This document shows positions 17,099 through 18,428 of a stretch of DNA of 64,000 nucleotides, one piece after another. The stretch's first letter is position 1. Every line of letters begins with the position of its first letter. Under the pieces are notes generated by a model. The model searched no databases. It saw only the letters and a list, made by a program, of their open reading frames with translations, and had not been told where the DNA came from. Origin of the DNA: Octopus vulgaris (Eukaryota); the NCBI GenBank assembly GCA_951406725.2, contig OX597824.1, forward strand, positions 93,930,001 to 93,994,000. Reading direction: 5' to 3'. The translations under genes were made by a program, and so were the position numbers.

Positions 17099-17278
17099 GG
17101 CATGACGTCAACGTGACCAATGACACAAGCAAAGACCATCGCATTTTCCTGACACCCGTCTCACTTTTTACCGTTTTTACATCGTTTGCAGACCATTGAG
17201 CATCAGTTGTGATGTTAGCATTTTGATTCCCGACGCGAAACATCCTCGAACAGATATCTATTTTCCAATATCCAAATA

Positions 17279-17583
17279 ACAATTGCAGCGTGGAAGGTGT
17301 TTGTAAGCCATTTAAGAAACACACAAAAGCCGTTCGATTCACTTCAACATTTAAGTTTAATTTGTCAAAATATTTTCGTCGCTTTGAGACCGCTTTGTCA
17401 ATGAACAGGTCGCGGTCTTATAGCGACGAAAATATTTTGACAAATTAAACTTAAATGTTGAAGTGAATCGAACGGCTTTTGTGTGTTTCTTAAATGGCTT
17501 ACAAACACCTTCCACGCTGCAATTGTTTTCGTTCCAGCACACGATCTCAGATCAAATCACTTGCTATGCAAGTACATCTCCGT
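17279..17583 (+). mobile_element. Fold-back Penelope-like non-autonomous insertion with 12 bp TSD
   Basis: 116 bp inverted arms (17278-17393 and 17412-17527, 2 mismatches), about 57 bp unpaired 3' tail, aatatccaaata duplicated at 17267-17278 and 17584-17595. Confidence 0.85.
17394..17444 (+). ncRNA. Variant-core type-I hammerhead-like fold
   Basis: tttgtca-AUGAACA-g-gtcgc(ggtcttata)gcgac-GAAA-atat-UU-tgacaaa: 7 bp helix I, 5 bp helix II, palindromic AAUAUU helix III. Positions 3 and 8 deviate from CUGANGA. Confidence 0.55.
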
Positions 17584-18428
17584 AATATCCAAATAGTTCT
17601 CAGTCTTCCATGTTAGGCAATTTTTTCACAACTACAGCTTTATTATTTACTCACTCGAAAACCATTGAATATTCACCAATATATCCAGCTGGTCCTGGAA
17701 AAATAAAATAAACAAGACATAAAGAAACATCAAACTTAGCCCGAAGACCCTGTGTGAATGTGATCACATTTTGCTGAGCAAAGGGAAAGCACACTTGTTC
17801 TGACTCTCGAAAGAACCACGTCTATCCAAGTGTATTTCAGTCAAACACTCCAACGCGAACAGGAATGTATACATGAATAGGAATATATACATGTAAATGC
17901 AGAATATACTCGTGTTTTTATTCCTACAGTTATACATCAACCGCTTAATATTTTCTTCACATTACACATTCATGCAGATGGGGGCTGCGTGCATCCATAT
18001 GCCAGTATATATATAGTTTTTATACACACGCACATACATATATATAAATTATATAAATGTATATATATATATATATGTGTATGTTTGTGTGTGTGTGTGT
18101 GTGTGTATGTGTGTGTGTATGTATGTATTTGCATATACATATATACATATTATACATATACACATTATGCATAAATGCATATATATATACATGTACATGG
18201 ATGAGTGTTTATATATATATATATGCATATTATGCATATATATACATGTATGTAAATATGCATATACATGTGCATATATAGGAGTATATATATATAAATA
18301 TATATGCATACTGTATACGTATGTACAGTATATACACACACACAAAGATATAGATGGTCGCGCTTGTGTCAGTGTAAATGTGTATCCTTATCTGTGTCTA
18401 CACACACATCTATATATATATATACATA

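What the first reader, a model, noticed from the sequence alone, without database searches (positions are those of the whole stretch)
17267..17595. Complete 305 bp fold-back insertion with 116 bp arms, a tail and a 12 bp TSD
Seen: TSD, inverted copy, direct copy starting exactly at the first base of hammerhead helix I (17394), about 57 bp tail, TSD. The arms are internal rather than terminal, so this is not a MITE. Established: Penelope-like insertions often have an inverted, 5'-truncated pseudo-LTR, a short 3' tail and TSDs of about this size. Inference: a coding-free minimal product of that mechanism, matching family H in architecture but not in sequence.
Basis: partly seen in the sequence, partly recalled or inferred. 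Interest (0 to 1): 0.7.

Follow-up and report, generated by a model that had tools for sequence, protein, structure and literature searches.

The report
Twin-primed Penelope stub, mismatched arms
This small mirror-image insertion is a short stub of an ordinary Penelope-like jumping gene whose full protein-coding copies sit in the same genome; it was likely made by copying the front end of the element's RNA onto both cut DNA strands, and its two halves carry different family variants, which suggests two RNA molecules were used.

Summary
The anatomy is real: 12/12 TSD, 116-nt arms at 98%, 56-nt tail. It is not a MITE and not a separate coding-free family. It is the pLTR plus tail of an autonomous Penelope-like element (RT plus C-terminal GIY-YIG, Nematis-like linker) in the same genome. 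The unit follows the ORF in 14 of 14 loci fetched, and an ATG at 17494 opens the ORF, so the tail is coding. At least 876 copies exist. The layout is already in print (PMC3846280, PMC8557442). The copies add three points. In 58 of 60 fold-backs one arm ends at the pLTR edge and the other at the tail, against 30 expected. Complete arms start with a G that the parent lacks, likely the RNA cap. In 14 of 43 fold-backs the arms carry different subfamily variants, as do this copy's arms, which simple fold-back copying does not explain. The start at hammerhead helix I is chance truncation, and this copy's ribozyme core is mutated. Verdict: new member of a known kind, useful as a test set for PLE insertion.

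The parts
17267..17278 (+). Left target-site duplication copy (12 nt; last base shared with the arm)
17279..17393 (-). Inverted, 5'-truncated pLTR copy (unit positions q133 back to q19, q1 = 17394). Its outer end is the family's fixed pLTR edge. It carries loop-II variant D (17384, 17386).
17394..17583 (+). Direct, 5'-truncated pLTR plus tail (q1-q190). It lacks the 15-16 nt that complete copies have at the 5' end. It carries loop-II variant C (17419, 17421).
17394..17444 (+). Minimal type-I hammerhead motif. Helix I 17394-17400/17438-17444; core 17401-17407 (A3 here, G3-C8 in the family); extra G at 17408; helix II 17409-17413/17423-17427; palindromic helix III 17429-17438; predicted cut between 17437 and 17438 after UUU.
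   Evidence: activity untested
17494..17586 (+). First 31 codons of the parent PLE ORF (ATG at 17494); the last codon overlaps the TSD
17528..17583 (+). Tail (56 nt): sequence between the two inferred reverse-transcription start points, present on one arm only
17584..17595 (+). Right target-site duplication copy; begins with AAT, which also matches template q191-193

Best explanation
The insertion is a 5'-truncated pLTR-plus-tail copy of an autonomous endonuclease-bearing Penelope-like element of this genome, likely made by two target-primed reverse-transcription events, one from each nick of a staggered cut about 12 nt wide, on capped element RNA. Shown: shared sequence with the parent, fixed 3' ends, variable inner junctions, TSD. 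Inferred steps: (1) A promoter in the pLTR makes capped RNA that starts at q-15. (2) The RT-endonuclease binds the early ORF region and cuts AT-rich DNA on both strands. (3) One DNA end primes at the tail end (q188-193), the other at the pLTR edge (about q133), once each per insertion. (4) The two cDNAs stop independently, here at q1 and q19, and are joined head to head. (5) Repair fills the 12-nt gaps. In this copy the two cDNAs were likely copied from two different pLTR templates. The hammerhead is a passenger and did not set either end.
For: The unit lies about 1 kb after the ORF in 14 of 14 loci (13 places). In 10 of 30 loci the frame from the pLTR start codon runs through the tail into the ORF, for 200 codons in L344. 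GIY-YIG scores over the Pfam cut-off. L325+L326 is a complete inverted copy + pLTR-ORF-pLTR-tail element. Inverted-arm outer ends: 26 of 44 fall in one 10-nt window. One end of each kind in 58 of 60 classified fold-backs, 30 expected, p 1.6e-15; this sample was not selected on 3' ends. Either arm can be the longer, even the ORF-bearing one (L323, L327, L330). G at q-16 in 332 exact matches against 68 with A/T, with no consensus further upstream in 20 loci. Five arms of the youngest parent variant start with G where the parent has T. Arms of different loop-II class in 14 of 43 pairs. The window arms differ at 2 of 110 sites, both diagnostic. In vitro a Poseidon protein cuts and extends both strands and has two RT start sites that bracket the tail (PMC11167929, main text read).
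Against: No biochemical or RNA-end data here; contigs cannot show starts. 14 of 74 fold-backs had an end in neither class and were left out of the 60. 13 loci had a single arm, and 24 of 68 tail-selected copies had no inverted arm, so second priming often fails or is lost. Most pairs (29 of 43) have matching arms, so two different templates is a minority outcome, and that sample is biased by how loci were fetched. In vitro no strand preference of the two start sites was seen (PMC11167929). RVT_1 stayed under the Pfam cut-off; the RT call rests on motifs and homologues. The sequence just before q-13 also looks like a splice acceptor.
Confidence: 0.8

Rival explanations
1. Self-priming fold-back: one cDNA, or an antisense template, folds on itself and copies the inverted arm from the direct arm, as proposed for PLE inverted repeats in PMC3846280.
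For: Junctions recur at short palindromes and at helix-I microhomologies (five loci share one junction at q43-51). 29 of 43 pairs have matching arms.
Against: Five pairs differ by the 3-4 linked changes, including an indel, that separate class A from B/C (L008, L079, L081, L287, L374). The inverted arm often holds sequence missing from the direct copy (L084, L049, L078). It does not predict a fixed second outer end.
Confidence: 0.1
2. A separate non-autonomous family (solo-pLTR or monomeric retrozyme) with its own master copies, mobilised in trans by the PLE protein.
For: Short copies are far commoner than ORF-bearing ones: 876 tail matches against 44 candidates for the ORF start. Tandem arrays of the unit exist and have moved (L087, L349). 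The window's class C was not seen among the young ORF-rich loci L323-L335. Any pLTR-tail copy with a promoter would give an ORF-less but usable RNA.
Against: Classes B and C occur with the parent's 3'UTR upstream (10 and 5 arms). ORF-linked pLTRs in L290, L291 and L359 are 97-98% identical to the window copy. Each fold-back has its own inner junction, so the hairpin is not copied as a unit. This rival is partly compatible with the best explanation: it concerns which locus made the RNA.
Confidence: 0.25
3. Mismatched arms come from one compound RNA with two different pLTRs, or from later gene conversion, rather than from two RNAs.
For: PLE RNAs can carry two pLTRs (L326). L087 has mixed loop variants within one array. 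Multicopy families do convert (own knowledge).
Against: None of the close same-orientation neighbours mixed class A with another class (12 pairs; a 13th, L037, is a separate insertion 1.4 kb away). In L032, L060 and L079 the differences are spread over more than one part of the arm.
Confidence: 0.35
4. MITE or foldback DNA transposon with terminal inverted repeats.
For: Long inverted repeat and TSD; many copies sit in TA repeats (67 of 114).
Against: Only one arm reaches a terminus. Inner junctions and lengths vary from under 100 bp to about 6 kb. Many copies have no inverted arm. TSDs are mostly 10-15 nt and variable. The unit is linked to RT and GIY-YIG.
Confidence: 0.01

Closest known systems
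Endonuclease-bearing Penelope insertions of Adineta vaga, e.g. Pen2a_Av (PMC3846280, passages read)
   Same: pLTRs of about 200 bp, an adjacent inverted truncated pLTR, a one-sided tail, 8-10 bp TSD, and a pLTR holding the first 12 codons (22 with tail). Here 11 and 30-31 codons.
   Different: The tail here is 56-60 nt, not 31. The family has hundreds of ORF-less stubs. That paper reads the inverted arm as self-priming; the copy set here favours two priming events.
Poseidon PAc of Anolis carolinensis (PMC11167929, parts 1-2 of 4 read)
   Same: Two RT start sites inside the early ORF that bracket the tail; cleavage and extension of both strands; AT-rich targets with an ATT motif (here the right TSD usually starts AAT); hammerhead near the ORF start and dispensable for insertion.
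   Different: Different clade: a linker zinc finger is present here. In vitro no strand difference in start site was seen, whereas genomic fold-backs here use each site once (58 of 60). Cap G and mismatched arms are not reported in the parts read.
Nematis clade of PLEs (PMC8557442, passages and supplementary alignment rows read)
   Same: C-terminal GIY-YIG with CCHH; a CX3CxxC finger followed by a short spacer, as in the Nematis rows and unlike the long spacer of the Neptune-like family in the same genome.
   Different: DKS instead of DKG, a non-conserved GxKF and an RWR motif recall Hydra. The RT has long insertions and an ORF of about 1,050 aa. No tree against named references was possible.
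Metazoan non-LTR retrozymes (PMC7229834, passages; 10.64898/2026.07.22.740005, parts 1-3 of 5)
   Same: Short non-coding-looking unit with a type-I hammerhead, derived from a PLE pLTR; occasional tandem arrays.
   Different: The window copy is a monomer with an inverted arm and TSD, not a head-to-tail repeat. No circular RNA evidence. The core is a minimal PLE type.
L1 twin priming (recalled, no call)
   Same: Two cDNAs from the two nicks give a 5' inversion flanked by a TSD.
   Different: In L1 the second primer anneals at a variable internal site of the same RNA and the arms do not overlap. Here the second start is fixed, the arms overlap, and they can come from different templates.

Membership tests
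EN+ Penelope-like element | Single ORF with RT in the parent | tested here: met
   1025-aa open frame in L323 with RT motifs; 122 homologues, some with RVT_1; own RVT_1 score under the cut-off
EN+ Penelope-like element | C-terminal GIY-YIG endonuclease with CCHH | tested here: met
   PF01541 25.4 bits, cut-off 22.6; two Cys inside the core and two His read from the sequence
EN+ Penelope-like element | pLTR as partial tandem containing the ORF start | tested here: met
   L326 has the unit before and after the ORF; ATG at q101
EN+ Penelope-like element | Inverted 5'-truncated copy and one-sided tail | tested here: met
   tail 56-60 nt, longer than the 30-40 bp in print
EN+ Penelope-like element | Hammerhead motif in the pLTR | tested here: met
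   Minimal motif with extra base after position 9 and palindromic helix III, features listed in PMC4209133; no Rfam match
EN+ Penelope-like element | Variable TSD, AT-rich or (TA)n targets | tested here: met
   Of 114 fold-backs, 67 in (TA)n, 35 with a TSD (30 of them 10-15 nt with one mismatch allowed), 12 none found
Nematis clade | CX2-5CxxC linker finger, reduced linker, CCHH | tested here: met
   L323 sequence compared by eye with supplementary rows
Nematis clade | RT phylogeny groups with named Nematis | not testable with these tools
   No named reference sequences were available as tool inputs
Hydra clade | No CCHH; CxCX5C linker | tested here: not met
   CCHH and CX3CxxC are present
MITE / foldback DNA transposon | Constant terminal inverted repeats at both ends | tested here: not met
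MITE / foldback DNA transposon | Fixed-length TSD | tested here: not met
Non-LTR retrozyme | Head-to-tail repeats with a hammerhead in each unit | tested here: not met
   Window copy is a monomer; arrays only in a few family loci (L002, L087, L349)
Non-LTR retrozyme | Circular RNA intermediate | not testable with these tools
   Only contigs were available
Active hammerhead ribozyme | Watson-Crick pair at positions 3 and 8 | tested here: not met
   Window copy has A3/C8 (7 of 237 arms); the family has G3/C8 in 206 of 237
Active hammerhead ribozyme | Cleavage in vivo leaving copy ends at the scissile bond | tested here: inconclusive
   6 of 95 arm starts at q45, 17 of 95 at q44-46, spread over q39-55 with no sharp peak

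The most novel reading that the evidence does not exclude
Penelope-like elements insert through a two-headed complex in which each RT subunit holds its own capped RNA, and the two subunits are forced to use different start sites (tail end versus pLTR edge). A single insertion can therefore be a chimera of two transcripts from different loci, as this copy is. This would explain the one-sided tail, the inverted pLTR and the mass of solo pLTRs together, and gives PLEs a built-in way to recombine subfamilies.
Probability: 0.45. Interest if true: 0.62.

Novelty: new member of a known kind. Interest (0 to 1): 0.4.

Why it matters
How PLEs make their inverted pLTR and one-sided tail is still open; PMC8557442 and PMC11167929 both leave the later steps unresolved. 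This family gives counts that separate the models: one start site per arm in 58 of 60 fold-backs, a likely cap-derived G marking complete cDNAs, and arms from different subfamilies within one TSD. These turn into a direct two-RNA test in an existing in vitro system. For annotation, such hairpins should be filed as PLE stubs, not MITEs or new ribozyme elements.

Tried and rejected
Hammerhead cleavage as the source of 5' ends: a first hint (about 8 of 42 internal ends at q43-46, counted by eye) did not hold in a targeted sample. The 95 starts were spread over q39-55. Rfam: no hammerhead family match. The young 781-aa Neptune-like PLE found by GIY-YIG search is not the parent; its pLTR does not match. 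The apparent link in L129/L140 is a fragment inside a common TIR element. Empty site: none seen. No joint skipping the insert was among those listed (57 were not shown). Contigs of three runs joined 12-22 nt of tail to the right flank, which is too short to count as bridging and is at most a weak hint that the insertion is shared. Expression: no RNA holder listed on record, and contigs cannot show starts or splicing. PDB sequence search: no match. A spliced first exon as the source of the 5' G was considered because of a branch-point-like word, a pyrimidine tract and AG before q-13. It is disfavoured since no shared sequence lies upstream of the G, but not excluded. One search was uninformative and one search repeated. 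Literature searches listed no paper whose title or abstract start points to coupled start sites, cap G or two-RNA templating in PLEs. I read only the papers cited, the library lacks most subscription journals, and I did not open the supplement of PMC11167929.

Full report
Observation. There is a 12-nt direct repeat at 17267-17278 and 17584-17595, 116-nt arms at 17278-17393 and 17412-17527 that are 98% complementary, and a 56-nt tail. Below, q1 is base 17394. A minimal type-I hammerhead motif spans q1-q51. Rfam has no matching model.

The family. The window lies in a 2.8-Gb animal genome; the closest named homologue of the parent protein is labelled Octopus vulgaris. A 29-nt tail word has 876 exact matches, control 0. 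I mapped 70 copies taken in chromosome order plus 30 best hits. The unit is about 205 nt (q-15 to q190). In 68 of the 70 (two dropped for an identical right junction) the tail-bearing arm stops within about 11 nt of q188, and 44 have an inverted arm. Of these, 26 have their outer end in one 10-nt window near q133 (that script's coordinates run one low). Inner junctions vary widely. The 5' start of the direct copy is at q-16 to q-12 in 24 of 70, at q0-q2 in 3 of 70, and beyond q12 in 26 of 70. The start at helix I in the window is therefore one truncation among many.

The parent. Several copies shared an upstream flank. Following it led through a microsatellite-rich 3'UTR into a GIY-YIG and RT reading frame. 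A protein search scored 144 places, in two groups: one at about 77-92% identity and a sister family at about 55%. All 14 loci fetched from the first group (13 places) carry the unit about 1 kb behind the ORF; none of 6 sister-family loci does. The longest open frame is 1025 aa, with GIY-YIG over the Pfam cut-off. RVT_1 stays under cut-off, but RT motifs and 122 homologues support RT. An ATG at 17494 opens a frame to the end of the tail. In 10 of 30 loci this frame runs on into the ORF, for 200 codons in L344, and it aligns weakly with the sister family's N-terminus (10 of 25 identical). L325+L326 is a complete element: inverted truncated copy, pLTR, ORF, 3'UTR, pLTR, tail. The window copy is 94-95% identical to the youngest parent pLTRs and 97-98% to those of L290, L291 and L359. 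The endonuclease linker resembles the Nematis rows in the supplement of PMC8557442; no tree was possible.

Known layout. PMC3846280 (passages) describes the same design in a rotifer: inverted truncated pLTR, one-sided tail, TSD, and ORF start inside the pLTR. It explains the inversion by self-priming. PMC8557442 (passages) calls the layout typical and notes (TA)n targeting. PMC11167929 (parts 1-2 of 4) shows in vitro that a Poseidon protein cuts and extends both strands, starts at two internal sites that bracket the tail, and does not need hammerhead cleavage. PMC4209133 (parts 1-2 of 4) lists the extra base after position 9 and the palindromic helix III seen here, and notes opposite-strand hammerhead pairs 100-700 bp apart.

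What the copies add, 1: coupled start sites. In 90 loci picked for truncation inside q39-55, and so not for their 3' ends, 74 were head-to-head pairs and 13 single arms. Of the 60 pairs with both ends classifiable, 58 had one end at q126-141 and one at the tail; 1 had two tails and 1 had none. Independent use predicts 30 (p 1.6e-15). Fourteen pairs with an end in neither class were left out. Kilobase-sized insertions follow the same rule, and either arm may carry the ORF. I infer two priming events per insertion, one at each site.

What the copies add, 2: a 5' G. The parent has C or T at q-16. Genome-wide, 332 exact matches have G there against 68 with A or T (the second pattern also barred C two bases upstream). 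Upstream of the G there is no consensus in 20 loci; the TSD or the other arm often abuts it. Five arms of the youngest parent variant start with G although that parent has T, and one of them (L354) continues into the ORF. Extra 5' Gs from reverse transcription are noted in PMC9731452 (passages); that they arise from the cap is my own knowledge. The simplest reading is a capped start at q-15, so that many short copies are complete cDNAs of the RNA's front end. A splice-acceptor-like sequence at the same place is a rival that I could not test.

What the copies add, 3: mismatched arms. Loop II of the hammerhead comes in a few common variants. The window's arms differ at only 2 of 110 compared sites, both diagnostic, giving variant C in the direct copy and D in the inverted arm. 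L012 has the same pairing. Among 43 head-to-head pairs (L003, L004 and L170 dropped; L002 and L005 are one event; the window copy is not counted because its arm is too short), 29 match and 14 do not. Five differ by the linked changes and indel of class A; three of those five have 12-14-nt TSDs and two lie in (TA)n. Some single-base mismatches may be later mutation, and the sample is biased. Copying one arm from the other does not give this. Two RNAs, one RNA with two different pLTRs, or gene conversion could; no A/non-A tandem source was seen.

The hammerhead. The family core has G3 and C8 in 206 of 237 arms, with a UUU cleavage triplet; the window copy has A3. The engineered C3G/G8C swap is partly active (PMC11167929). 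The passages I read report U3-A8 as the natural swap (PMC3088659; PMC4209133), and one search listed one paper using the term G3-C8, which I did not open. Copy ends show no sharp peak at the predicted cut, so I find no sign that cleavage shaped this insertion.

Earlier notes of this scan propose twin priming for PLE stubs in other genomes and for other families in this one. They are unchecked and not independent support. I consulted them after forming my reading. One of them assumes a single RNA, which the mismatched arms here question.

Verdict. Real feature and ordinary class: a short insertion of a new family of endonuclease-bearing Penelope-like element (confidence in this identity about 0.97). 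The two-priming mechanism is inferred (0.8). Two separate RNAs for this copy is the bold reading (0.45). Interest 0.40.

Noticed in passing
window 62982-63055: Second type-I hammerhead motif with a canonical C3-G8 core in a single arm ending at (TA)n. About 77% like a fold-back in L112/L132 and unrelated to this family.
   Followed up: partly
window 16732-17099: Two tandem 184-bp copies (97%) of a very common interspersed repeat, SINE-like, 170 bp left of the insertion.
   Followed up: no
L337-L342: Very young sister PLE family with an intact 1310-1312-aa ORF and an asparagine-rich insert. Its 3' copy of the ORF start also stops near codon 28-30, at the homologous place.
   Followed up: partly
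L131-L142: Young Neptune-like PLE with a 781-aa open frame, an upstream frame, and a U3-A8 hammerhead-like motif near its 3' end, read by eye.
   Followed up: partly
L087, L349, L002-L005: Tandem arrays (period 166-192 bp) of the tail-less pLTR unit joined by a shared TA-rich spacer and inserted as one arm: a retrozyme-like source derived from this family.
   Followed up: partly
L326 1700-1721: Branch-point-like word, pyrimidine tract and AG directly before q-13 in the parent; may be a splice acceptor as well as the transcription start.
   Followed up: partly
L140 3598-3713: A q78-193 fragment sits inside a TA-flanked element with terminal inverted repeats; L151 matches across the same junction at 86%, so the MITE may have carried it.
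   Followed up: partly
L348, L358, L366: Copies in which the first 100-400 nt of the ORF jump directly to a new pLTR start, suggesting template jumps or further start points inside the ORF.
   Followed up: no
row P0109: A host protein model named dynein regulatory complex subunit 6-like carries a 71%-identical piece of this PLE ORF; exonisation or an annotation error.
   Followed up: no
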